IMG/VR virus record: IMGVR_UViG_3300037466_000868
Length of the DNA stretch: 20,000 nt
DNA from: an uncultured virus (IMG/VR IMGVR_UViG_3300037466_000868)
Lineage: Duplodnaviria > Heunggongvirae > Uroviricota > Caudoviricetes
Reading direction: 5' to 3' (one strand)
The notes under the pieces were generated by a model. The model saw only the letters and a list, made by a program, of their open reading frames with translations. It made no database searches and had not been told where the DNA came from. Made by a program: the position numbers and the translations under genes. This document shows, piece by piece, positions 8,189-20,000 of this stretch (the first letter of the stretch is position 1; every line of letters begins with the position of its first letter).

Positions 8189-9496
8189 CTACTTCTCGCA
8201 CTTCCCGAGCGGGCGACGGTCCTTTCTCTCGAAAACTGGTATTTGTTCGATAGTGGAGGCCGGGGAGATCAGGGAGGCTGTCGGCTGGACTGATATCGTG
8301 TTCAGGCGTGGGTTGACGTTGACGGCAAGTGGGCATCCATCGCGCGCGCAGATTGTGTTGTAGGTACGTTCAAATCCATATCCCTCATCGCCCATAAGTT
8401 TCGCCTGCAAAATCGTATGATACGGCAGGAAGGGGAAGTAATCCGGCTTGTGTAACTGGACGCCAAGGCCGGCGATTCCAGCGATACCAACGCCTGCGAC
8501 GACCGCTTGCCGAACTCGCAATCGGTAGATGGACAGCACGTCAGCACGCAAAGCGGCGGCGGTCTGCCAAGGCAGCGCCACAGCCATGATCCGCGTCCAG
8601 AATGTAGGATAGTGCGATAGCATCAGATGCGCGGCGAGCATGTAAAGTGTCAGAGCGAATCCTATTTTAATAAAGGGGTCGTCATTGCGCTGCTTAAAGA
8701 GTGCGGTGAGGATGATGCTATGCCAAACGATGAGAACCATCGCGCTAATTGAGGCGTTGACCGGCAGATACGTCAGATGGAAGCATAGCTTGTACCGCAG
8801 CCAATCGGGGGAGAACGGCATAACCGCGCGAATGACCGTGTGAAACAAATTGAGGCCGGTTAGGAGCGAGGCAGCGAATGACGCGACAAAAATCGCTAAG
8901 GCAAACGCGATTATTTTGCCGCTAAATCGTACCCTGTTGATCAGCCACAGCGGCGCGAACATTGCCGACGAGACTTGAATACCAAGAGCGGCAATCATAG
9001 GGGTTGCGCCAGTGAACGTTTTTCGGTTTGCAACAAAGAGTAACCCCAGCAAGACGAATGAACTCGCAAACGCCTGTCGGGTGGTATTCATTTGGACGGT
9101 GACAACCGCAACGCAGAAGTAGACCAGCCACACGATCGGTTGGGAATTAGGACAAATTCGCTGAACGACGAAGTAGATTGCCCAAACGTTAAAGACGGCG
9201 ATCACGGCAAAGAGGATGTCTACCGACCCGCCGAGGGATTTCGTTAGAATATTAAGCCAAAGAAAAAGCGGCTCAACCTGGAGAACTGGCGCGGGTGGTT
9301 GATAGCCGAAATGCCATTCCCGTAGATGCGAAAACAACGAGTCGTAGGCGAGCCAATCGTATCCGAGATGGTATCTTAATCCGACAAAAAGCCCAACGAT
9401 CACCGTAGAAGCTATCGCCGCCCACTTTGTGGGGCTGTGCATCGATATCAGGGCCAAAATTAACAGCGCAACGGCAACGACGAGATAAGCAAACAT
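8189..9496 (-). CDS. EpsG/Wzy-like polysaccharide polymerase (lysogenic conversion moron)
   Basis: Multi-TM 435 aa protein with GLRYHLGYDWLAY, EPLF, RQAFASS and IQVSS motifs typical of the EpsG family; antisense to late genes; visibly AT-richer than its flanks. Confidence 0.8.
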   Translation of the reverse strand: MFAYLVVAVALLILALISMHSPTKWAAIASTVIVGLFVGLRYHLGYDWLAYDSLFSHLREWHFGYQPPAPVLQVEPLFLWLNILTKSLGGSVDILFAVIAVFNVWAIYFVVQRICPNSQPIVWLVYFCVAVVTVQMNTTRQAFASSFVLLGLLFVANRKTFTGATPMIAALGIQVSSAMFAPLWLINRVRFSGKIIAFALAIFVASFAASLLTGLNLFHTVIRAVMPFSPDWLRYKLCFHLTYLPVNASISAMVLIVWHSIILTALFKQRNDDPFIKIGFALTLYMLAAHLMLSHYPTFWTRIMAVALPWQTAAALRADVLSIYRLRVRQAVVAGVGIAGIAGLGVQLHKPDYFPFLPYHTILQAKLMGDEGYGFERTYNTICARDGCPLAVNVNPRLNTISVQPTASLISPASTIEQIPVFERKDRRPLGKCEK

Positions 9497-10875: not shown

Positions 10876-11144
10876 AGTACACTGTAACTGCCGCTGCGCT
10901 AGTGGCGGGCCTGATGCTTGCCGGTTGCCAGCCTCCCGGCACCACCTCCGGCCAGTTGCCCACCGTCCCGGCCGATATTCAGGCGTGCTTCCGGCAAGGC
11001 CCGGTGAAGGTGCCGCCCAAGGCCCTGACCGTGGCCGAGGTTGAGTCCCTCTGGAAACAGGACCGGGTTCGCTCGGCCGTCATGCATGCTTGCGGGCAGC
11101 GCTTCTTAGCCTGGTACGGCGATCTGCAGAAGAGGTGGCGGTGA
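10872..11144 (+). CDS. Rz1-like o-spanin lipoprotein
   Basis: Signal peptide with lipobox LAGC, Pro-rich mature part with additional Cys; ATGA overlap with Rz. Confidence 0.78.
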   Translation: MKYTVTAAALVAGLMLAGCQPPGTTSGQLPTVPADIQACFRQGPVKVPPKALTVAEVESLWKQDRVRSAVMHACGQRFLAWYGDLQKRWR

Positions 11145-11335
11145 TGACGCCACAGACAGAGGAGGCGATGTCTCGCATTCGCGCCTGTAAGACTTACGAA
11201 GAAAGGCAGGCGATGGCGCGGCAAATCTACAAAGAGCGAAACCCACCCCTTACGGCATTCGATAAATTCATGAATTTCGCGGTGTTTTTCGGCCCCATCG
11301 TTATCGGTGTGGCCATCGCTTTGGTGATTTTGTGA
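11144..11335 (+). CDS. small membrane protein
   Basis: GTGATG coupling after GAGGT; C-terminal TM helix. Confidence 0.6.
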   Translation: MTPQTEEAMSRIRACKTYEERQAMARQIYKERNPPLTAFDKFMNFAVFFGPIVIGVAIALVIL

Positions 11336-11625
11336 TGGGTGTCTTTGAATGGGGCGCCGTAGCCGCCCTGGTGGCCGTGGGCGGCATTGTCTGGAGGCTG
11401 GCGTGGCGGCTATCCTCCAACACGGAACGCATCACGGCGGCGGAAACCTTGGCTACGGCGGCATCCGCGCGGACTGTAGAACTGACTCGCGCGCTTGCCG
11501 AGCACAAGGAACACGTCGCAGCAGAATATGTGAGCCGTGGGGCGTTGAAGGAGATTACCGACGCGATCAACCGGTTGGGTGATCGGCTCGATAATCTTTT
11601 CATCCACATGATGCCCAAGCCATGA
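11335..11625 (+). CDS. N-terminal TM plus coiled-coil protein (lysis-cassette associated)
   Basis: TM helix followed by EHVAAEYVSR...INRLGDRLD coiled coil, a pattern common in phage lysis regions. Confidence 0.65.
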   Translation: MGVFEWGAVAALVAVGGIVWRLAWRLSSNTERITAAETLATAASARTVELTRALAEHKEHVAAEYVSRGALKEITDAINRLGDRLDNLFIHMMPKP

Positions 11626-11765
11626 TCGAGACCGCGCTGGAAGTCGCCATGGCGCTGGGCGCACTGGCCCTGTTCGCCATGGCTTTAGGGCTGGCCTTGG
11701 ACAACCACGCGGCGCGGTTGGACCCTAGCACGCCATATTATGTCGCAGCGCAAAAGGCCCCGTAA
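11622..11765 (+). CDS. 47-aa hydrophobic peptide (MIETALEVAMALGALALF...)
   Basis: ATGA overlap with the upstream gene; ends TAA inside the terminator hairpin. Confidence 0.5.
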   Translation: MIETALEVAMALGALALFAMALGLALDNHAARLDPSTPYYVAAQKAP

Positions 11766-11782
11766 GTCGGGGCCAAATTTTT
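11752..11782. terminator. probable intrinsic terminator (possibly bidirectional) ending the late operon
   Basis: AAAA-GGCCCCG-taagt-CGGGGCC-aaaTTTTTT. Confidence 0.6.
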
Positions 11783-11840
11783 CTATAGCTGTTGCGTTTT
11801 GCCGCCTTAGCTATCTGCGTATTCCAACCAATGAGGCCAC

Positions 11841-13115
11841 ATGCCTACTCCTCCGGTATCAAACGAAGACCTTGCGGCCACGGTAGCCGCCTATGAGGCC
11901 AGCGGGCGCAATCAATCCGCCACGGCCAGGGTGCTAGGGTTGGCGCGGGAAACCGTGCAGTCGCGGCTTAGGCGGGCCTCTGAGCGGGGTCTGCTGCTGG
12001 GGCATCCGGCGGCGATGCCGGGGTTTGCCATAAAGAGCGTAGCGGCCAAGGTTGGCGATGCTTGGGTTAAGCAAACCAAGGAACCGGGCGAGGTCTACGC
12101 GCCGATTGAGGGACACGCCATCAAGGGCGAGTCCGCTCTGGTGGATGCCGAAGGGCGCGTTATCCAGAAGTGGATTAAAACCAAAGAGGACGCCGACGAC
12201 ACGATTGCGCTATCCGCCGCAATCCATGACGAGTTTTCGCAATACAAGGGGTACGCCAAACTAGTGCGCCCGCCGAAGGAAACCTACGCCGACCTCTGCA
12301 ACTACTACCCTGTCGTCGATCCGCACATTGGGATGCTTTCTAACGGCAAGGAGACCGGCGAATCCAACGACTTGAAGATTGGCGTTAGTCGCGTCGGCGG
12401 GACATTGCAGCGGCTTATCGGGGACTCACCTCCCGCAGACACTGGCGTAATCATCAACACCGGAGACTTCTTCCACGCAGACGATCAGCGCAACGTCACG
12501 CCAGCATCAAACCATCAACTTGACGTTGATGGACGCAGCCACAAAGTCAAGTGGGCCGGAATTAACATGCTGCGCACCACGATTGATCTGGCCCTACAGC
12601 GGCACAAGAGGGTTATCGTCAAAAACCTGAAGGGCAACCACGACCCGGAATCAGCCATGTGGCTGAATATTTCTCTTGGGTTGTTCTACTCAAATGAAGA
12701 GCGCGTCGAGATCGACACGGAAGACGCGAATAATGATCACTTCTTCCATCTGTTCGGCGTGAACTATACCGGGGCCACGCACGGTCACACGATGAAGCCT
12801 GACCGCATGTATGTGATGATGGCGGAAGATAACCCTGAATACTGGAATGCGTCGCTCTACCGTTGGTGCATCTTCGGCCACATTCATCACGAGACGAAGA
12901 AGCAGATCGGCTCGCTAATATGCGAGTCATTCAGCCAGCCTGTGCCGCGCGATTCATTCGCTCACAGCCACGGTTATAGGTCGGGCAGCGCCATGCAGTC
13001 GGTGACGCTGCATAAGCAGGACGGCGAAAGCGGGCGGGTTATCAAACGCTTCCCGCCGTCGCGTGGGTTGCCGGTTGCGGCGAATGATAATGAGCAAAAG
13101 CGGAGGGCGGCGTGA
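11841..13115 (+). CDS. N-terminal HTH plus calcineurin-like metallophosphoesterase
   Basis: HTH NQSATARVLGLARETVQSRL; motifs DPH, TGDFFHAD, GNHD, HGH, GHIHH; C-terminus AANDNEQKRRAA. Confidence 0.85.
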   Translation: MPTPPVSNEDLAATVAAYEASGRNQSATARVLGLARETVQSRLRRASERGLLLGHPAAMPGFAIKSVAAKVGDAWVKQTKEPGEVYAPIEGHAIKGESALVDAEGRVIQKWIKTKEDADDTIALSAAIHDEFSQYKGYAKLVRPPKETYADLCNYYPVVDPHIGMLSNGKETGESNDLKIGVSRVGGTLQRLIGDSPPADTGVIINTGDFFHADDQRNVTPASNHQLDVDGRSHKVKWAGINMLRTTIDLALQRHKRVIVKNLKGNHDPESAMWLNISLGLFYSNEERVEIDTEDANNDHFFHLFGVNYTGATHGHTMKPDRMYVMMAEDNPEYWNASLYRWCIFGHIHHETKKQIGSLICESFSQPVPRDSFAHSHGYRSGSAMQSVTLHKQDGESGRVIKRFPPSRGLPVAANDNEQKRRAA

Positions 13116-13378
13116 GTAAACCGGCAGAAGTTATTATCATCAAGGAAGGTGTATTGGAGTCGTGGCTTAACGATGCCGGCACGTTTGTTATGTTCGCGAC
13201 TCTTATCGGTATTGGCGTCCTTATCGGTAGCCCTGCCATGCAATGGGTTGGTGGAATCATTGGCTTCATTGCCATCGGCACGCGCCCAACGCTACACCGG
13301 AAGCGGATGACGATCGCGGAAGCTCGTGCAAAGCTGGACTCGTTTGACGCCGCACCCACGCAAGTAGGTGCGGCATGA
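13112..13378 (+). CDS. small 2-TM hypothetical protein
   Basis: GTGA overlap with GGAGG upstream; two hydrophobic segments; ends TQVGAA. Confidence 0.65.
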   Translation: MSKPAEVIIIKEGVLESWLNDAGTFVMFATLIGIGVLIGSPAMQWVGGIIGFIAIGTRPTLHRKRMTIAEARAKLDSFDAAPTQVGAA

Positions 13379-13584
13379 CACCCACCAAATTCGACGGCTT
13401 CAATGCCGTTTACCGCGGCACCGCAGAACTTCCCTGTGAAGACCTCCCTGCCAAGCGCACCGACAAGACGGTTGTTACGCGCTGGTTGCCGTCTGCGGAG
13501 GAGATACAGCGCATGGCGCGCGGTGGTGCTGTTGAGTTGACGATCTTCGGCGGGCAGCCGCCGGTTGCTATGAGGGTGGTGTGA
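13375..13584 (+). CDS. phage hypothetical protein
   Basis: ATGA coupling; pattern CEDLP...W.PS.EE...GG.V.L...QPPV is a recognisable phage small-protein family. Confidence 0.7.
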   Translation: MTPTKFDGFNAVYRGTAELPCEDLPAKRTDKTVVTRWLPSAEEIQRMARGGAVELTIFGGQPPVAMRVV

Positions 13585-13787
13585 TGCTGACAAAGCCGAT
13601 GACAAGCAACCCCGAGCTAGACGCGCTTATTGAACGCGCTGTCGCTGCGTACAATAAGATGACGCCGCAGCAAAAGCGCGAGATGCACGAGGCGCAGCGG
13701 CGTTCGTGGGTGATCGGCAACATGCTGTTGGATCATCCTGATATGTCGCGTGAGTATGCGGAGAACATTTACGATAGGGTGGTGTGA
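13584..13787 (+). CDS. phage hypothetical protein
   Basis: GTGATG coupling; MTPQQKREMHEAQRRSWVIGN. Confidence 0.65.
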   Translation: MLTKPMTSNPELDALIERAVAAYNKMTPQQKREMHEAQRRSWVIGNMLLDHPDMSREYAENIYDRVV

Positions 13788-13930
13788 TGGCGATAGGCAA
13801 CATAAAGCGAAAGTGGTTGCGCCGCACGGTTGTTGTTATTGTTTCGCCTGTGGCGTTCGTTGTGCACATCCTTGTCGGCCTGGCACAGGGATGCGTTGAT
13901 GCCGCAGAAGACGTGCGCAGCGCTTGGTGA
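13787..13930 (+). CDS. 47-aa membrane peptide (MAIGNIKRKWLRRTVVVIVSP...)
   Basis: Exactly fills the gap, with TGATG coupling at both ends; basic N-terminus plus TM helix. Confidence 0.6.
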   Translation: MAIGNIKRKWLRRTVVVIVSPVAFVVHILVGLAQGCVDAAEDVRSAW

Positions 13931-14295
13931 TGACCGCGCTCCAACTAACCCCCGCCGTCCTCGCAGCGGCTTACGACTATCTAGCAGCCTGCGAACCTTT
14001 CTGCCGTTGGAACCTACCCGACTCCGAAGACATCAAGTTTCGAGTCATCAAGTCGCGCAAGGTATTCGCGCAGTATGTGTGGGACGGCACCCACGCAATT
14101 GAGGTGTCGTCCGGCACGGTAGGGCAAACGGATACGTTGATGCAGACCATGGCACATGAGCTAACGCACCTGCACCTGCGGCTTACCGGGATGGAAAGCC
14201 GCAGCGATAATCCGAACGTGCATAACGGCGCGTTCCGGAAGTTGGCGGCGAAGGTCTGTGCGACACACGGCTGGGATTTGAAGGCGTTTTATTGA
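13930..14295 (+). CDS. SprT-like zinc metalloprotease
   Basis: TMAHELTHL (HExxH) followed by HNGAFRKL, the SprT-type downstream H-x-x-x-F motif. Confidence 0.75.
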   Translation: MTALQLTPAVLAAAYDYLAACEPFCRWNLPDSEDIKFRVIKSRKVFAQYVWDGTHAIEVSSGTVGQTDTLMQTMAHELTHLHLRLTGMESRSDNPNVHNGAFRKLAAKVCATHGWDLKAFY

Positions 14296-14302
14296 GGGGA
14301 AA

Positions 14303-14500
14303 ATGACATTCAAAGAAATCCCATTTGAAGACGATGCCGATGAAGTCCAAACATGGAAGGGGCTTGCGTTATCGGCTATAAGCGATCTGAGGCGATATGC
14401 GCACGATGATCTTCCGCACCGCCGAATGGTCTCTGTCGAGGCTTATGAAGCCGACGCCATACGACTTCACTCCGCTACGCAAGTTGCGGAGGCGGCGTGA
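14303..14500 (+). CDS. hypothetical protein
   Basis: GAGGGG SD; ends TQVAEAA. Confidence 0.6.
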   Translation: MTFKEIPFEDDADEVQTWKGLALSAISDLRRYAHDDLPHRRMVSVEAYEADAIRLHSATQVAEAA

Positions 14501-14646
14501 TGAGAGCGGCGTTCCTGGCGAACCTTGCTCTTACATTCCAGCGGGCTGTGTCAGTTGGGCCGCCGCACAGGATAGATGGCAGAATGCGGGAACGAGCGTG
14601 GCTTTGGTTTTCTGAGGCTCAACAGATGGGGCTAGTATTGCAATGA
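14500..14646 (+). CDS. 48-aa hypothetical protein (MRAAFLANL...)
   Basis: GGAGG SD; TGATG coupling upstream and ATGA coupling downstream. Confidence 0.55.
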   Translation: MRAAFLANLALTFQRAVSVGPPHRIDGRMRERAWLWFSEAQQMGLVLQ

Positions 14647-14930
14647 CCTACCACAACCCCGGCGACCCCGTCGTTTTCGTCGACGACACCAACCTTGGCA
14701 CGCTCGGCTACGGCGACGAGGTGTATCCCAAGCTCGGCAATACCTACACCGTGCGCGATGTTGTGCTTGACCACTTCGGCGTGGAAGGGCTCTTGCTGAT
14801 GGAGATCCGCAACGATCGTCTGCCGTATCGCGTTGGCGCCGAGATTGTGGACACGGAAAAGAGCTTCGCGTCGTGGCGATTCAGGCCGGTTGTGCGCGGT
14901 GAGAGCAAGAAAGATATGGAGGCGGTGTGA
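14643..14930 (+). CDS. hypothetical protein (small beta-barrel-like)
   Basis: ATGA coupling; PGDPVVFVDD...G.TYTVR...RFRPV pattern common in alphaproteobacterial phages. Confidence 0.7.
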   Translation: MTYHNPGDPVVFVDDTNLGTLGYGDEVYPKLGNTYTVRDVVLDHFGVEGLLLMEIRNDRLPYRVGAEIVDTEKSFASWRFRPVVRGESKKDMEAV

Positions 14931-15409
14931 GTATTAGAATCATGGATACAACGGCGCGTGAGACGTGTGACGCGGTTTCTGCTTATCGCGAAGCCCCCGC
15001 GAAGTCGCACAGCGACACCGCGCCTTGCGAAATCCTTCCAACCTCCGAATGGTCGCCAACTATTGGCCAGCCGGAGGCGGCCAATAGTAACGTCGTGGGG
15101 CTGGCGGGCCAGTACGTTCTATTGCGCACCATCCTCGACGCCGCCTTCAACCACGCCGCAACCGGCAAGGGCAAGGAGCGTCACGCGCGGGACTTGCCTT
15201 TCGATAAGCAGCCGATGCTTGAAACCACCCGCCTTGTCGGACCAGGATTCCCGCTCGGACAGGCCATCAAGAAGGCCGGCGAGGCGGCTGGCATGATCGA
15301 TCGGTCGGAATACGACGCCGCAGAGGCTGAGTGCCTTGGGGCGATCAACTATCTGGCTGGTGCGGTGGCTTGGATGAGGGAGCGAAAATCTGCTAAGGTG
15401 GCTGCATGA
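14927..15409 (+). CDS. conserved phage hypothetical protein (GKGKERH family; possibly all-alpha NTP-pyrophosphatase-like)
   Basis: GGAGG plus GTGA coupling; GKGKERHA...PF..QP...GQAIKK..EA...E.LGAINY; function is inferred only. Confidence 0.6.
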   Translation: MSIRIMDTTARETCDAVSAYREAPAKSHSDTAPCEILPTSEWSPTIGQPEAANSNVVGLAGQYVLLRTILDAAFNHAATGKGKERHARDLPFDKQPMLETTRLVGPGFPLGQAIKKAGEAAGMIDRSEYDAAEAECLGAINYLAGAVAWMRERKSAKVAA

Positions 15410-15636
15410 CAGATTGGCAGACTATAGACTCAGCGCCCAAGGATGGCACCGCCATACGAGCGTGCCGCGTGGTAGATGGCAAGCCGATGTTTGATGGTAA
15501 GGCCGCTTGGCGCACCGTTACGCTACCAGAGACGTTTGTCGCCGGAATGTTGGTTCATGAAGAGACGGTCACTGGATGGATGCGTATAGATGAGGATAAG
15601 CGCGCCCCTGAACCGACGCATTGGATGCCAGAATGA
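15406..15636 (+). CDS. DUF551-like phage protein
   Basis: WQTIDSAPKDG ... PTHWMP signature. Confidence 0.75.
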   Translation: MTDWQTIDSAPKDGTAIRACRVVDGKPMFDGKAAWRTVTLPETFVAGMLVHEETVTGWMRIDEDKRAPEPTHWMPE

Positions 15637-15806
15637 ACATCAAGGGCGATACTGTCGAGATGACGGAGAACGAACTTCAGGAACTCATGCGCCAGCGTGA
15701 TAATTATTCTGGAAACATTTCTCTCAATCTAGAGTCTGTTGGCGAGACCTACCAAGGGCGTAGGGTCGTCATTTCGCCGGCCTCTACGCAAGTTGAGGCG
15801 GGCTAG
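15633..15806 (+). CDS. hypothetical protein (MNIKGDTVE...)
   Basis: ATGA coupling; ends TQVEAG. Confidence 0.55.
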   Translation: MNIKGDTVEMTENELQELMRQRDNYSGNISLNLESVGETYQGRRVVISPASTQVEAG

Positions 15807-15954
15807 GCTGCCGCCACTCATCACCACACCAGCGCTCCATAAATGACACGTTGGCGCGTCATACGGGCCAGATATGAAGCGTATACGCGACAGCGTATGA
15901 TTCATGGATATACGCTTTTGCGTATTGAAATTCACAACGAGTGAATGTTTTTCA

Positions 15955-15990
15955 GGCCCGCCCCTTCGAAAGTTGGGGTGGGTTTTCTTT
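15955..15990 (+). terminator. intrinsic terminator of the accessory operon
   Basis: CCCGCCCC-TT-C-GAAA-G-TT-GGGGTGGG followed by TTTTCTTT, at the convergence with minus-strand genes. Confidence 0.7.
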
Positions 15991-16306
15991 ACCGCGCACC
16001 CACTCCCATCGGAACCTTCGGCCAGACCGCCCTTACGTCGACCCAGCCAACCGCGCCGCATTTCGTGCAGCGAAGGTGCGCAGATATATCGGCCCACGTC
16101 CAATCCGGCAGATTCGCGATTCGTAGTTCTGCGCTGTGGCCGCACCGCTGACCCGATCCGCCAACGCAATAAACCAGAATCGACTTCACGTCCCCGCGGC
16201 GATCGGGCTTACCCGGCCAATATCGCAGGAAGTCGGCGGGCTTTTTGCGCCATGGTTTGCGTTGCTGGAGGCGGTGCATGGCGAGAACGTAATGCGAACG
16301 CGCCAA
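15989..16306 (-). CDS. small zinc-ribbon protein
   Basis: YC...RCGH and LRCTKCG Cys pairs; immediately downstream of the integrase; start codon uncertain. Confidence 0.6.
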   Translation of the reverse strand: MARSHYVLAMHRLQQRKPWRKKPADFLRYWPGKPDRRGDVKSILVYCVGGSGQRCGHSAELRIANLPDWTWADISAHLRCTKCGAVGWVDVRAVWPKVPMGVGAR

Positions 16307-16309
16307 GTG

Positions 16310-17644
16310 TCAACGCTGCGCCAATATCCTGTCCAGTTCCGCGCCCAGAATATCCGCGACGGCGCGCTTTTCAGGCAGCATATCGTATTTGTCATAGACG
16401 GCGGTTACGTCGCCATTCAGATGGTCAAGCATTGCCTTGACATCTTCGCGCTTGGCGCCAGCTCGGCGGGCGAGGGTGGCAGCGGTACGGCGCAAGTCAT
16501 GCGCCGTGAAGTGCTCCATCCCTAAAAACTCGCGAATGCCAACGCGGTTTTGCTTCTTGCCGTCCACGACCTTGCCGTTCCGCTTTCCATTTAATGCTTG
16601 GGATATCGACGCCCGCGAAATCGACGTGCTTCCGGTCGAGTCGAATTTTGACGGAAACAGCACTTTAGAATCAGCACCCTCTAGGGCCTCAGATACAACC
16701 GCACAGGCCCGTTTTGACAGCGGCACCAAGACGGCACGGTCCTTTTTCACTCGGCCTGGCGGCATGTCGTATAGCGCCTCTGGCGTGTCTAGGCCGGTAA
16801 CCTCGCCAACTTCGGCACCAGCGGCCTGATAGGGGCGTACCATGGTGGTTAGAATGAACCGGATGGCGAGGCGCGTAGGCTTGTCCGCCGGCACGCCTTC
16901 CGCGTCGAGGCCGCGCCAGAGCCTTCGTATTTCGTCGTCGGTGAGGACACGATCGCGTTTGCGTTCTTTGCCGCCGCGGCGGTCTAGTTCCGCAACGGGG
17001 TTGGTGGCGACATACTTGCGGCCGGGCTGCTTTGCCCATTTGAACAGCGTGTGAAGGATGGACTGCGTGCGGTTTGCGCTCACGGGGGCAGACTCCGCAA
17101 TTACGTCCAGCAGTTCAGCAACGTCATCGTCTGCAACCGACGAGGCCGGCAGGCCGCCCCATTCTTCGCGCGGGCGCTTGAGATATTGAACGTCGTTTTT
17201 CCAAGATCGTTTGTTCGGATGTGGTATGTCTGGCCACTTGCCGGTCTCGTTAAATGCTGTAACGGCGGCCTCGCCTCCGGCGCCGATCACGTATTCCGCG
17301 ACGTATAGATCCGCGAGGCGGTTGAACGTTAGTTCCTCATCGTCAGCCACGCGCCGTCGTTCCTGCCGCTGTAGACGACGCGGGTCTTCATCAGCTGCTA
17401 TTGTTTCGCGGTGCTGCGCAACTTTCCTGCGCGCGCCAGATAGGTCGAGGCCAGGATATCGTCCAAGGTTCAGGGTTATCGCCTTGGACAGGATTGGCGA
17501 CCAATATTTAAACGCGAACGTTTTCACAGCGCCCTTGGTGACGCGGAGATACAAACCGGGGCAGGAGGTGTCCGGCAATTCTACGCGGGCCTTATCTGGT
17601 GGGCACCGCGCGGCCTTTACCGAACTATCCGTTAGCTTTGGCAT
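16310..17644 (-). CDS. int: tyrosine integrase, P4-like with N-terminal arm-binding domain
   Basis: N-terminal DTSCPGLYLRVT...LGRYPGLDLSGAR; catalytic R (MVRP), K (VKK), HDLRRT, LDH, Y (VYDKY). Confidence 0.95.
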   Translation of the reverse strand: MPKLTDSSVKAARCPPDKARVELPDTSCPGLYLRVTKGAVKTFAFKYWSPILSKAITLNLGRYPGLDLSGARRKVAQHRETIAADEDPRRLQRQERRRVADDEELTFNRLADLYVAEYVIGAGGEAAVTAFNETGKWPDIPHPNKRSWKNDVQYLKRPREEWGGLPASSVADDDVAELLDVIAESAPVSANRTQSILHTLFKWAKQPGRKYVATNPVAELDRRGGKERKRDRVLTDDEIRRLWRGLDAEGVPADKPTRLAIRFILTTMVRPYQAAGAEVGEVTGLDTPEALYDMPPGRVKKDRAVLVPLSKRACAVVSEALEGADSKVLFPSKFDSTGSTSISRASISQALNGKRNGKVVDGKKQNRVGIREFLGMEHFTAHDLRRTAATLARRAGAKREDVKAMLDHLNGDVTAVYDKYDMLPEKRAVADILGAELDRILAQR

Positions 17645-17679
17645 GGTTGCGCTCTAGTCTTGCAAATCTCATATATCGC

Positions 17680-17701
17680 CTTGCCCAAGGGCAGGGAAAC
17701 T
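17680..17701. promoter_or_regulatory. putative integrase arm-type sites (left arm)
   Basis: CTTGCCC-aa-GGGCAGGGAAACT, matching the GGGCAAG and GGGCAAGGAAACT repeats at 17901-17930. Confidence 0.55.
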
Positions 17702-17747
17702 GGTTGATAGCACTAGAGCACGCTAGACGGCAATAGATGTCAAACCG

Positions 17748-17765
17748 AATAAAAACAATGACTTG
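17748..17765 (+). promoter_or_regulatory. IHF-like site left of att core
   Basis: AAACAATGACTTG, one mismatch to WATCAANNNNTTR; near-direct repeat of 17859-17876. Confidence 0.55.
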
Positions 17766-17809
17766 CGTAGTTTAAGATTGTCCAGCAATGTCATCTACGG
17801 CACTATTTT

Positions 17810-17859
17810 CTAGTCTGGGGGACTAGGGGTCGTGGGTTCGAATCCCGCCGCTCCGACCA
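17810..17859 (+). mobile_element. attP core: 3' portion of tRNA-Pro(GGG)
   Basis: CTAGT-CTGGGGG-ACTAG anticodon arm, GTGGG-TTCGAAT-CCCGC T-arm, CGCTCCG-ACCA acceptor 3' strand; no 5' half or D-arm upstream; lies between int and xis. Confidence 0.92.
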
Positions 17860-17863
17860 ATAA

Positions 17864-17876
17864 AATCAAGGACTTA
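17864..17876 (+). promoter_or_regulatory. IHF binding site right of att core
   Basis: AATCAAGGACTTA is a perfect WATCAANNNNTTR match. Confidence 0.7.
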
Positions 17877-17900
17877 ACCGGAAGTCGATTTAAAAGAAAA

Positions 17901-17930
17901 TGCCCTGGGCAAGGCCAGGGCAAGGAAACT
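17901..17930. promoter_or_regulatory. putative integrase arm-type sites (right arm)
   Basis: TGCCC-t-GGGCAAG-gcca-GGGCAAGGAAACT. Confidence 0.55.
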
Positions 17931-17931
17931 A

Positions 17932-18150
17932 TCAAGAGGCTTGCCGGTCTAGCGATTCTTGCCAGGCCGAGACGTCGTCCTCGTACCAGGCAATTCGCCG
18001 CGGCGCGATCTCGCGGGCCTTGGGGAAGCGGCCGGCACCCATCTCGTTGTAGAGGGTGGCCCGGCTGAATGGCACCAGCGCGAGCACCTGTTTAACGCCG
18101 AGCATCTTGCGGATTGTTGGTGTGTTGTCGTTAGCTGCGGTTGTAGCCAT
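17932..18150 (-). CDS. AlpA-family excisionase / recombination directionality factor
   Basis: MLGVKQVLALVPFSRATLYNEMGAGRFPK..I..RRIAWYEDDVSAW; adjacent to attP. Confidence 0.88.
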   Translation of the reverse strand: MATTAANDNTPTIRKMLGVKQVLALVPFSRATLYNEMGAGRFPKAREIAPRRIAWYEDDVSAWQESLDRQAS

Positions 18151-18153
18151 CCC

Positions 18154-18426
18154 TTATCCCTCCGCCTTTGGGGGAGAGGGGAGGGGATCTGCTGCCTTCG
18201 CTTCGATCTCGCAGGCTGGACAGTATCGATATGTGATGCCGCCGGACTGAAAGGACCCATGGCGCATATCGCGACGGTCGAACATGAGCCCACAGCCAGG
18301 GCGGTCGCAAAGTTCGATCTGGTCAAGGTCGGACGCGATTGATTCCGCGTCTTTGAGCGCTGGCCGCAAGTGATCGTCAATGACGATGCCAAGCCAACCG
18401 CGTTCTGCGATTGTGGGTTTAGTCAC
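18154..18426 (-). CDS. Cys-containing hypothetical protein
   Basis: CDRPGC...YCPAC possible Zn site; GGAG SD upstream; part of a tightly packed minus-strand operon. Confidence 0.6.
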   Translation of the reverse strand: MTKPTIAERGWLGIVIDDHLRPALKDAESIASDLDQIELCDRPGCGLMFDRRDMRHGSFQSGGITYRYCPACEIEAKAADPLPSPPKAEG

Positions 18427-18940
18427 TGTTCTCTCCCGTTGTGGCTGCGGGAAGCATGGCGCGGGCGGCTCGAAGGTGGCCGACGTTGATCTGCATGGCG
18501 CACAGCGCTTCCCAGATATCCGTTGCGTCCTTGTCGCTGTCGTCTAAATCGTCACCGGCTTCCGCAAACGGCCTTAGCACCTCGACCGCCTCTGCCAACG
18601 CGCGCTCTGCCTGCTCGGCGCGGTGTCGCCATTCGAGGCGGCTTTTCATGGCGAGGTCGTAGCACTTGCCGAGCCGCTTGATTTCCGCGTCTTTTGCGGC
18701 CAGCGTATCAGCATCACGACACGCTGCCGAGATGCCGCTCGTCTCATCGTCCAGCGCCATCTTGAGCGTGGAAATCTCCTTGTCCTTCGCGGCGAGCGAG
18801 GCGGATTGCTGCTCGATAAGGTCGGCGGCTTCTAGCATCATGGGCCACACTGCTCCGATGTACTTTCCGTCATCGTCTTTGGCTGGGCCGCCACGATCGT
18901 TGACGTGGCTGCGCAACCGCTTCAAGATATCCTCTGTCAT
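18419..18940 (-). CDS. Ead/Ea22-like coiled-coil early protein
   Basis: MTEDILKRLR...EAADLIE...LAAKDKEI/LAAKDAEI...ALAEAVEVLRPFA...LRAARAML. Confidence 0.65.
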   Translation of the reverse strand: MTEDILKRLRSHVNDRGGPAKDDDGKYIGAVWPMMLEAADLIEQQSASLAAKDKEISTLKMALDDETSGISAACRDADTLAAKDAEIKRLGKCYDLAMKSRLEWRHRAEQAERALAEAVEVLRPFAEAGDDLDDSDKDATDIWEALCAMQINVGHLRAARAMLPAATTGENSD

Positions 18941-19134: not shown

Positions 19135-20000
19135 TCACTTCTCCCCGGCGGCACGAATGGCGGCGGCGCGCTTCACGCGATCAGCCCCGCAAATAAAAAC
19201 GGCTGCGTTGTGTAAGGAAACTCTCGCGGTCCCGATGATACTCTCGTCCCCACGAGATAGAACGAGCAGGTTCTCGCAAACCTTGTCGAGCATCTTCTCC
19301 CGCTCGTCTGCCCTGATCGCTGCTTCCGGCGAGCCGAAGTCCTTCAGCGCAAACTCGCGGTCGGCTTGCTTGTCATCGTCCCATGCCAGCAACAACCATT
19401 GCGGCTCTGGATGCCATTCAGTCGATCCGAAGCGAACGGATTTCGGTATGATGCGGCGGACAGACGTTTCGCCGCGATAGTTGGTGTAGCTGATGACCCA
19501 TAAAGCGGATTGTCGGATCGCCGCTTCGTCTGGCAGCGTATCGAGCAAACTAGGACCATGGCCGCACCCCGAATAATCATTTGGGGTTCCCTTCTTCGCG
19601 TCTGCGTCGGGCGCTCCCGCTCGCATTCCGAAGTTGTCGCTTTCGTATTCGCAGAGCAGACAGACGGCGCCATCCGCGTTAATCTGGCGATCTATGACGC
19701 GACCAAACACCCGGTTACCTGCATCGTCGTCACCAGTTGAAACATCAATCGAGACGGTGCTGGGCAGGAGGCCGAGGATGGCATCGATTGCCCGTGCTAC
19801 GTGGTTTTCGTTGATGATGCCGATATCGTAAAGCCGATCAACAACGTCCACGGCCAACTCATGCCTTGCCGCGCTCGGCGTCGGTGCCGGTGGGGTGGCG
19901 TTCAACGCGGCATCGATCATTTCGCCAAGCGATTGCATCGTGCCGACATCGACGACGGACGCTTCGATCATTTCGCCGCGAATAAAATCACGGCAGATTT
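19135..20000 (-). CDS. mosaic early protein containing a WYL-like domain (5' end probably outside window)
   Basis: ISYTNYRGETSVRRIIP...WLLLAWDDDKQADREFAL matches the WYL pattern; the frame is open to the window edge. Confidence 0.7.
   Translation of the reverse strand, partial: ICRDFIRGEMIEASVVDVGTMQSLGEMIDAALNATPPAPTPSAARHELAVDVVDRLYDIGIINENHVARAIDAILGLLPSTVSIDVSTGDDDAGNRVFGRVIDRQINADGAVCLLCEYESDNFGMRAGAPDADAKKGTPNDYSGCGHGPSLLDTLPDEAAIRQSALWVISYTNYRGETSVRRIIPKSVRFGSTEWHPEPQWLLLAWDDDKQADREFALKDFGSPEAAIRADEREKMLDKVCENLLVLSRGDESIIGTARVSLHNAAVFICGADRVKRAAAIRAAGEK

What the first reader, a model, noticed from the sequence alone, without database searches (positions are those of the whole stretch)
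13074..13115. Genome-encoded tmRNA (SsrA) tag mimic on the metallophosphoesterase: AANDNEQKRRAA-stop
Seen: the protein ends AANDNEQKRRAA. Known: alphaproteobacterial tmRNA tags begin AANDN and end AA (Caulobacter AANDNFAEEFAVAA), with the N-terminal part bound by the SspB adaptor and the terminal AA read by ClpX. Inference: the phage hard-codes a complete host degradation tag, either to make this enzyme short-lived or to titrate SspB/ClpXP.
Basis: partly seen in the sequence, partly recalled or inferred. Interest (0 to 1): 0.72.

Follow-up and report, generated by a model that had tools for sequence, protein, structure and literature searches.

The report
Phage enzyme ends in ssrA-like tag
A temperate phage of rhizobium-type bacteria has written the two constant ends of its hosts' "destroy-me" peptide tag into the floppy tail of a metal-dependent phosphoesterase, and related phages do so in many other proteins, which probably links these proteins to the host SspB-ClpXP protease, although no binding or degradation has been measured.

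Summary
Observation confirmed: ORF 11841-13115 (424 aa, HTH plus calcineurin-like metallophosphoesterase) ends AANDNEQKRRAA-stop in a disordered tail. ANDN lies in the last 40 residues of 33 of 120 homologs and nowhere else in them, with free synonymous codons. All 30 host-order tmRNA tags read ANDN...AA. It is not a complete tag: one residue short, unrelated middle, and no aromatic at +5 (hosts 28 of 30). It is not specific to this enzyme: the window's excisionase starts with AANDN. Phage 16-3 has 17 in-frame ANDN in 16 of 109 genes (0.14 expected), and three relatives have 15-20, against 0-2 in nine other phages. In the closest complete relative, 9 of 10 ANDN proteins end AA/VA against 9 of 80 others. 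The AA also overlaps the next gene's ribosome site and start. SspB co-folding gave only weak support (0.60, best control 0.03). Best reading: a lineage-wide SspB-tether plus ClpX degron that shortens protein lifetimes; untested. This scan reported the same motif earlier on three other genomes; ten paper searches found no description.

The parts
11841..13115 (+). 424-aa phage protein (PHROG 704): N-terminal HTH, beta-rich middle part, calcineurin-like metallophosphoesterase domain, disordered tail; substrate unknown
   Evidence: (phrog_704 E 6.7e-89; PF13556 residues 11-48)
12282..13055 (+). Metallophosphoesterase domain (about residues 148-405) with D160-x-H162, G208-D209-x-x-H212, G265-N-H-D268, H314-G-H316, G346-H347-x-H349
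   Evidence: D160, H162, G208, D209, H212, G265-D268, H314, G315, H347, H349 invariant in 112 aligned homologs, H316 and G346 at least 90%; best VIA Z 13.7 (rmsd 4.0, 221 aligned) to DP1, with MJ phosphodiesterase, LpxH, SbcD and Mre11 tied within 1
13077..13091 (+). AANDN: head of the alphaproteobacterial ssrA peptide (inferred SspB-binding site), codons GCG GCG AAT GAT AAT
   Evidence: pLDDT below 50 for residues 412-423
13092..13106 (+). Variable spacer EQKRR, unlike host tag middles; its last codons carry GGAGG (13102-13106), a Shine-Dalgarno-like site 5 nt before the next start
   Evidence: sequence; spacer variation
13107..13115 (+). Terminal Ala-Ala and TGA (inferred ClpX degron); GTGA overlaps the start of the next ORF
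13112..13378 (+). Next ORF, 88 aa, no family hit, starts inside the stop codon; itself ends GAA* overlapping the following start
17932..18150 (-). Excisionase/AlpA-like protein (72 aa) with AANDN at residues 5-9 (18138-18124); ends ...RQAS, not AA
   Evidence: phrog_2790 E 4.6e-10, phrog_66
16310..17644 (-). Tyrosine integrase (context: temperate phage)
17810..17860 (+). attP core-like 3' part of tRNA-Pro(GGG); places the host among rhizobium-type alphaproteobacteria (inferred)
   Evidence: 95.6% to the phiLM21 attP (attP named in PMC12429752, passage); 96% over 51 nt to a tRNA-Pro(GGG) in G056

Best explanation
The tail is a genome-encoded, two-part mimic of the alphaproteobacterial ssrA peptide, selected as protein. 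SHOWN: ANDN and a terminal AA/VA sit in a disordered tail, are kept while the spacer and codons vary, match the two invariant ends of host tags, and recur together in many unrelated proteins of 16-3-like temperate rhizobial phages. INFERRED: the host adaptor SspB-alpha binds A-N-D-N, tethers the protein to ClpX, and ClpX engages the C-terminal Ala-Ala and feeds the protein to ClpP. Because the +5 aromatic is missing, the spacer is short and the last five residues (KRRAA) are polar and basic, the signal is probably weaker and more SspB-dependent than a true tag. The likely purpose is to limit the level and lifetime of potentially harmful DNA- and nucleotide-handling proteins (this phosphoesterase, excisionase, HNH nucleases, methyltransferases, helicase, sigma factor) and of unassembled portal. 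Proteins with N-terminal or internal ANDN and a distant AA end would use the same two signals split apart.
For: Host tags: 30 of 30 tmRNA loci read (the 30 best of 61 genomes of G001's order) encode ANDN...AA; 61 of 61 have SspB. Homologs (top 120 of 1102): ANDN in the last 40 residues of 33, none elsewhere in 49,839 residues; 31 of these 33 end AA/VA against 23 of the other 87. 32 of 33 put Ala before ANDN, where all 30 tmRNA genes have ...TAGTT (a Val codon), so the phage copies the peptide including the non-templated Ala (that this Ala is non-templated is recalled), not the gene. All Ala, Asn and Asp codons are used in 71 distinct viral tails from 28 BLAST families. Phage 16-3: 17 ANDN in 16 of 109 CDS, 0.14 expected; all 18 six-frame hits lie in open frames, 17 in annotated genes. 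G062: 15 in 11 ORFs; 9 of 10 called ANDN ORFs end AA/VA against 9 of 80, p 6e-7; 16-3 6 of 13 against 11 of 74, p 0.017. Five host genomes: 127 pattern matches in 32.8 Mb, control 78, about 75-fold sparser than 16-3. No SspB homolog in 4 of 4 motif-rich phages. An AANDE...AA form, like the E. coli tag head, ends 12 distinct viral frames; the 2 I tested are HTH regulators nearest to gammaproteobacterial phage proteins. Co-folding of G001 SspB with residues 395-424: weak support, score 0.60, best control 0.03, runs agree in at least 77% of contacts, partner pLDDT at least 54; the mark was reached by 116 of 157 solved and 2 of 215 mismatched pairs, but at 0.60 or under by only 18 of the 157 and by both mismatches, and Caulobacter SspB is solved (2QAS, 2QAZ), so the pass may come from memory.
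Against: No binding or turnover data. Position +5 is aromatic in 28 of 30 host tags but in 0 of 33 homolog tails, 0 of 71 viral tails, 0 of 18 16-3 and 0 of 15 G062 motifs; a full scan for ANDN[YF]x4[AV]A-stop gave only 12 stretches, 2 of them true tmRNA genes. If SspB needs that residue, binding could be weak or absent. The terminal AA is partly explained by gene overlap: 46 of 71 viral tails overlap an RTGA start, and among genes without ANDN, AA/VA ends are commoner at such overlaps (G062 6 of 28 against 3 of 52; 16-3 8 of 26 against 3 of 48). On a tree the link between ANDN and AA/VA was not significant (5 independent pairs, median p 0.625), and for annotated 16-3 genes it was borderline (7 of 16 against 18 of 93, p 0.050). 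Three other rhizobial phages have only 2, 1 and 0 motifs, which a general benefit from host SspB does not explain. The window's excisionase does not end in AA. In E. coli a terminal AA was not sufficient and strong tags had charge of +2 or less (PMC10862746, section 16); KRRAA is +3.
Confidence: 0.66

Rival explanations
1. Collective decoy: the many ANDN-bearing phage proteins occupy SspB and queue at ClpXP, sparing phage products from tmRNA-linked destruction or slowing turnover of host ClpXP substrates; fast destruction of each protein is secondary.
For: 11-16 proteins per genome carry the motif, some in tandem (SSB-like protein and excisionase of G062, helicase of 16-3); several lack an AA end; SspB is scarce in E. 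coli (176-356 dimers per cell in exponential phase, PMC9382460, passage).
Against: ANDN co-occurs with AA/VA ends in the same protein, which fits delivery rather than a stable sink; carriers are mostly enzymes and regulators, not a small dedicated decoy; loss of the +5 aromatic would make a poor competitor.
Confidence: 0.12
2. ANDN is a linear motif for another reader (a host protein other than SspB, or a phage-encoded protease, chaperone or adaptor of the 16-3-like lineage), and its likeness to the tag is convergent or historical.
For: Enrichment is confined to one lineage (15-20 copies in 4 complete phages, 0-2 in 9 others, three of them rhizobial); +5 aromatic absent; motif position varies; 16-3 encodes a trypsin-like protease that itself carries ANDN.
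Against: Exact identity with the invariant host tag head including the extra Ala; coupling to AA ends; a parallel AANDE form on proteins nearest to gammaproteobacterial phages; no phage SspB found, though other readers were not searched for.
Confidence: 0.14
3. Only ANDN matters; the RRAA-stop is a by-product of translational coupling (GGAGG, GCGGC, GTGA), so the tail is an SspB-binding site without a working ClpX degron.
For: The Shine-Dalgarno-like GGAGG and the next start lie inside the last five codons; three other small genes of the window end AA, all at RTGA overlaps, without ANDN.
Against: 21 of 71 viral tails have no start overlap (but the pattern demanded the AA); L010 and RHph_X2_25 homologs end AA with no ORF of 35 aa or more starting nearby; downstream genes differ among homologs while the tail is kept.
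Confidence: 0.06
4. A DNA or RNA element (captured ssrA fragment, resume-codon mimic, repeat) or chance.
For: In the window alone the DNA pattern is not significantly frequent.
Against: Full synonymous variation; hits fall in frame in genes; no tmRNA match at the site; scrambled control nearly empty.
Confidence: 0.02

Closest known systems
Native tmRNA (ssrA) tag of alphaproteobacteria read by SspB-alpha and ClpXP (Caulobacter AANDNFAEEFAVAA, PMC9393093; SspB structures 2QAS, 2QAZ, 2NYS)
   Same: AANDN head, Ala-Ala end, about the same length, unstructured C-terminal position.
   Different: Encoded in the gene rather than added by trans-translation; 11 rather than 12-13 residues from ANDN; polar and basic middle; no aromatic at +5; in other proteins the head and the AA end are split apart.
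Native ClpXP substrates with ssrA-like ends, notably E. coli RseA(1-108), delivered by SspB and ending VAA (PMC8138137, table passage); phage proteins MuA and lambda O as ClpXP substrates (same table)
   Same: A genome-encoded SspB site plus a small-residue C-terminal degron; phage proteins made unstable by host ClpXP.
   Different: RseA is a single host regulator exposed by cleavage, with a sequence unlike ssrA; MuA and lambda O use other motifs. Here the ssrA head itself is reused in about 15% of a phage's genes.
Phage-borne parts of the trans-translation pathway: tmRNA genes in mycobacteriophages and Bacillus phage G (PMC4131195, passages); SspB homolog in Pseudomonas phage pf16 (PMC5587285, passage)
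   Same: Phages engaging the tmRNA-SspB-ClpXP axis.
   Different: Those phages carry the RNA or the adaptor; this lineage carries neither in the sequences tested and marks its own proteins.
PHROG 704 'DNA repair exonuclease' family (16-3 p044; calcineurin-like superfamily)
   Same: E 6.7e-89 over residues 15-402; catalytic motifs intact; 2033 phage records match.
   Different: Most members lack the tail (87 of 120 close homologs; 8 of 10 named phage homologs read); substrate not established.

Membership tests
Alphaproteobacterial ssrA tag | Encoded in a tmRNA gene and added by trans-translation | tested here: not met
   In frame at the end of a 424-aa ORF; no tmRNA by ARAGORN or Rfam at this site
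Alphaproteobacterial ssrA tag | (A)ANDN head | tested here: met
   30 of 30 host tags; window tail
Alphaproteobacterial ssrA tag | Free C-terminal Ala-Ala | tested here: met
Alphaproteobacterial ssrA tag | Aromatic residue after ANDN and length 12-13 | tested here: not met
   Hosts Y/F in 28 of 30, length 12 (26) or 13 (4); window E, length 11
SspB-delivered ClpXP substrate (works-like claim) | Degron in an unstructured, exposed terminus | tested here: met
   pLDDT below 50 for residues 412-423, no secondary structure after 404
SspB-delivered ClpXP substrate (works-like claim) | Host group encodes SspB-alpha | tested here: met
   61 of 61 genomes of G001's order; the window's own host is inferred, not held
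SspB-delivered ClpXP substrate (works-like claim) | Binds SspB | tested here: inconclusive
   Weak pass 0.60 against best control 0.03; like structures solved
SspB-delivered ClpXP substrate (works-like claim) | Degraded by ClpXP, faster with SspB | not testable with these tools
   Needs biochemistry
Calcineurin-like metallophosphoesterase superfamily | Five metal-binding motifs DxH, GDxxH/D, GNHD, H, GHxH | tested here: met
Calcineurin-like metallophosphoesterase superfamily | Fold | tested here: met
   Foldseek and VIA top hits are of this superfamily; PF12850 matches 23 of 112 homologs weakly but not P0001 itself
Mre11/SbcD DNA repair nuclease | Capping domain, Rad50/SbcC partner, nuclease activity | tested here: inconclusive
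   Z tied with LpxH, DP1 and small phosphodiesterases at 9-16% identity; no SbcC-like hit among 37 window ORFs scanned

The most novel reading that the evidence does not exclude
16-3-like temperate rhizobial phages run a proteome-wide proteolysis programme: 11-16 proteins for excision, replication, methylation, transcription and packaging carry the host SspB-binding tetrapeptide, often far from their AA end, deliberately detuned by loss of the +5 aromatic. Free SspB then acts as one dial: when host tmRNA-tagged proteins occupy SspB (translation stress) the phage proteins are stabilised together, so the phage reads host translation stress and times induction or lytic progression by it. A parallel AANDE version exists in phages of gammaproteobacteria.
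Probability: 0.25. Interest if true: 0.85.

Novelty: new variant of a known kind. Interest (0 to 1): 0.62.

Why it matters
SspB has few known natural substrates beyond tmRNA-tagged proteins and RseA. A phage lineage that writes the SspB-binding head of the tag into about one gene in seven would show post-translational control of a phage life cycle by a host adaptor, and would show that the site works at N-termini and inside proteins. It is directly testable in phage 16-3 and laboratory Sinorhizobium. The natural tails are also a ready library of graded degrons for alphaproteobacteria, and ANDN density is a simple marker of this phage group.

Tried and rejected
No whole genome is held for the window, so the rest of this phage could not be read; G062 (MPE 90% identical, DNA similarity limited to window 9.7-16 kb) and 16-3 served as stand-ins. 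Captured ssrA DNA or an att-site remnant: rejected; the phage's attP is tRNA-Pro and the motif's codons vary freely. Phage-encoded SspB: none in 4 of 4 phages at E up to 10 (no positive control in that call). Tree test of ANDN with AA/VA (116 rows; P0010, P0048, P0052, P0092, P0120 left out as truncated or odd-length; label was [NC]DN in the last 30 residues): 9 changes of state, too few independent pairs for significance. PDB sequence search of P0001: nothing significant. NCBIfam: no hit for P0001. Promoter and terminator scan of 11000-18500: at shuffle level. Earlier findings by sequence: none. Paper searches showed no paper on ANDN motifs in phage proteins, judged from listings and abstract starts; term look-ups in PMC4131195 and PMC12429752 found no ANDN. 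Two key papers were not held: Mao et al. 2009 on tmRNA gene variation and Chien et al. 2007 on SspB-alpha specificity (both recalled), so a prior mention and the role of the +5 residue remain unchecked. No supplements were read; most subscription papers are outside the library.

Full report
Observation. ORF 11841-13115(+) encodes 424 aa ending RGLPVAANDNEQKRRAA*. The protein matches PHROG 704 (E 6.7e-89) and has an N-terminal HTH. The calcineurin-like motifs are invariant or nearly so in 112 aligned homologs. The AlphaFold model (mean pLDDT 82.6) matches Mre11, SbcD, LpxH, DP1 and small phosphodiesterases about equally (best Z 13.7, rmsd 4.0, 221 aligned), so the superfamily is clear and the substrate is not. 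The last strand ends at residue 404 and residues 412-423 have pLDDT below 50: the motif is in a free tail.

Context. The window holds tail, lysis, small accessory genes, an integrase and an excisionase. Positions 17810-17860 match the phiLM21 attP (PMC12429752, passage) and a tRNA-Pro(GGG) of genome G056 at 96%. The phage is therefore temperate, and its host is inferred to be a rhizobium-type alphaproteobacterium. The order lysis, phosphoesterase, small genes, integrase, excisionase resembles phage 16-3. No genome is held for the window.

Is the tail more than chance? In the window alone the DNA pattern is unremarkable (3 matches, 1.05 expected, 17 of 200 shuffles). In frame, 0.053 ANDN are expected in 32 likely genes and 2 are seen. 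Among the top 120 of 1102 homologs, 33 have ANDN within the last 40 residues and none has it elsewhere in 49,839 residues; 31 of the 33 end AA or VA, against 23 of the other 87. The spacer changes length and sequence. On a tree of 116 rows the trait changes state at least 9 times, but the link with AA/VA ends is not significant on 5 independent pairs. All synonymous codons of Ala, Asn and Asp occur, so selection acts on the peptide.

Comparison with real tags. tmRNA was found in 61 of 61 genomes of the order of G001, a genome that carries a 71%-identical homolog in a motif-rich region. In the 30 loci read, every tag begins ANDN and ends AA; length is 12 (26) or 13 (4); position +5 is Tyr 27, Phe 1, Asn 2. 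The Caulobacter tag AANDNFAEEFAVAA is confirmed in PMC9393093 (passage). All 30 genes have TAGTT before the Ala codon, whereas 32 of 33 homolog tails have Ala there: the phage spells out the first Ala that tmRNA supplies by charging (recalled), which points to mimicry of the product and not capture of the gene. SspB is present in 61 of 61 genomes, usually just behind ssrA. The mimic is partial: 11 residues, a polar and basic middle, and no aromatic at +5 in 0 of 33, 0 of 71, 0 of 18 and 0 of 15 motifs of the four sets. Aromatic versions exist but are rare: 12 stretches in a full scan, 2 of them tmRNA genes, against 22 for His at +5.

A lineage-wide trait. The window's excisionase begins MATTAANDNTPT. 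Phage 16-3 has 17 ANDN in 16 of 109 annotated proteins (0.14 expected), among them its phosphoesterase, excisionase, portal, helicase, Cas4-like nuclease and two methyltransferases; nine lie within 30 residues of the C-terminus and the rest are N-terminal or internal. G062, a complete 64.7-kb relative, has 15 in 11 ORFs, including portal, HNH nucleases, methyltransferase, sigma factor, SSB-like protein and excisionase. ANDN is the most over-represented tetrapeptide in both, and the 11 permutations total 4 in each. RHph_TM3_3_14B has 18 pattern matches and RHph_X2_25 has 20. Nine other phages have 0-2: phiLM21 2, RHEph19 1, RHph_X2_26 0, three roseophages 0, three gammaproteobacterial phages 1, 0, 0. 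Five host genomes give 127 matches in 32.8 Mb against 78 for a permuted control. In G062, 9 of 10 called ANDN ORFs end AA/VA against 9 of 80 others (p 6e-7), even where ANDN is N-terminal; in 16-3 it is 6 of 13 against 11 of 74 (p 0.017) with my simple ORF caller and 7 of 16 against 18 of 93 (p 0.050) with the annotation. An AANDE-x5-[AV]A form gave 15 stretches, 12 distinct, none in a tmRNA; the two ORFs I tested are HTH regulators nearest to proteins of gammaproteobacterial phages, whose model host tag is AANDENYALAA. Their hosts were not established.

A confounder. The last codons CGG AGG GCG GCG TGA contain GGAGG, five bases, and the GTG of ORF 13112. Three more small genes of the window end AA at such overlaps, and overlaps raise AA/VA frequency among genes without ANDN. 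So the AA is doubly constrained. It is not only that: two homologs end AA with no overlapping ORF, and downstream genes differ while the tail persists.

Mechanism. Most likely SspB-alpha binds ANDN and tethers the protein to ClpX, which takes the terminal AA (established for ssrA tags: PMC8138137 and PMC9382460, passages; inferred here). Co-folding gave weak support: 0.60 against a best control of 0.03, at least 77% contact agreement, partner pLDDT at least 54; at this level 18 of 157 solved and 2 of 215 mismatched pairs passed, and SspB-alpha structures exist. In E. coli, AA alone is not enough and strong tags are hydrophobic with charge up to +2 (PMC10862746, section 16), so KRRAA is probably a weak degron that needs the adaptor. 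I put 0.66 on SspB/ClpXP-linked turnover, 0.14 on another reader, 0.12 on collective titration, 0.06 on ANDN without a working AA degron, and 0.02 on a nucleic-acid element or chance. The restriction to one lineage is unexplained.

Novelty. Built-in ClpX degrons and SspB delivery of RseA are known, and phages are known to carry tmRNA or SspB (PMC4131195, PMC5587285; passages). Ten searches (listings and abstract starts) showed no description of ANDN motifs in phage proteomes; two likely sources were not held. This scan reported the same motif on three other genomes; I had seen the second motif and the homolog tails before that look-up, and the counts above are my own.

Noticed in passing
window 18138-18124 (-): Second AANDN at the N-terminus of the excisionase; the excisionases of 16-3 and G062 also carry N-terminal ANDN, twice in G062.
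   Followed up: yes
window 13378, 14500, 15409 (+): Three more small genes end in AA without ANDN, each at an RTGA overlap with the next gene.
   Followed up: partly
L041-L070 (SspB genes): 10 of 28 SspB-alpha proteins read have an AND/ANE-like stretch in the linker behind the core, a possible pseudo-substrate; loose pattern, no control run.
   Followed up: partly
L211-L225: AANDE-x5-AA tails on viral proteins, two of them Cro-like regulators nearest to gammaproteobacterial phage proteins: a possible gamma-type version of the same mimicry.
   Followed up: partly
window 8189-9496 (-): EpsG-family (polysaccharide polymerase-like) membrane protein opposite to the late genes, between tail fibre and lysis genes; possible surface-conversion moron.
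   Followed up: no
window 17810-17860: attP-like tRNA-Pro(GGG) fragment lies between integrase and excisionase, upstream of the integrase start; it explains a weak tmRNA hit in Rfam.
   Followed up: yes
window 13924-14295 (+): SprT-like zinc metalloprotease ORF three genes behind the phosphoesterase, just under the Pfam cut-off.
   Followed up: no
window 19135-19971 (-): 278-aa ORF with a phrog_3715 match at residues 158-216; by eye that part looks WYL-like (recalled motif; Pfam gave no hit).
   Followed up: no
L227, L228: Two viral contigs carry one-piece tmRNA genes with ANDNF...AA tags.
   Followed up: no
G037:C1:1617813-1621643; G001:C3:268709-321068: Clusters of the ANDN pattern in host genomes (4 in 4 kb; 8 in 52 kb) probably mark prophages of this group.
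   Followed up: partly
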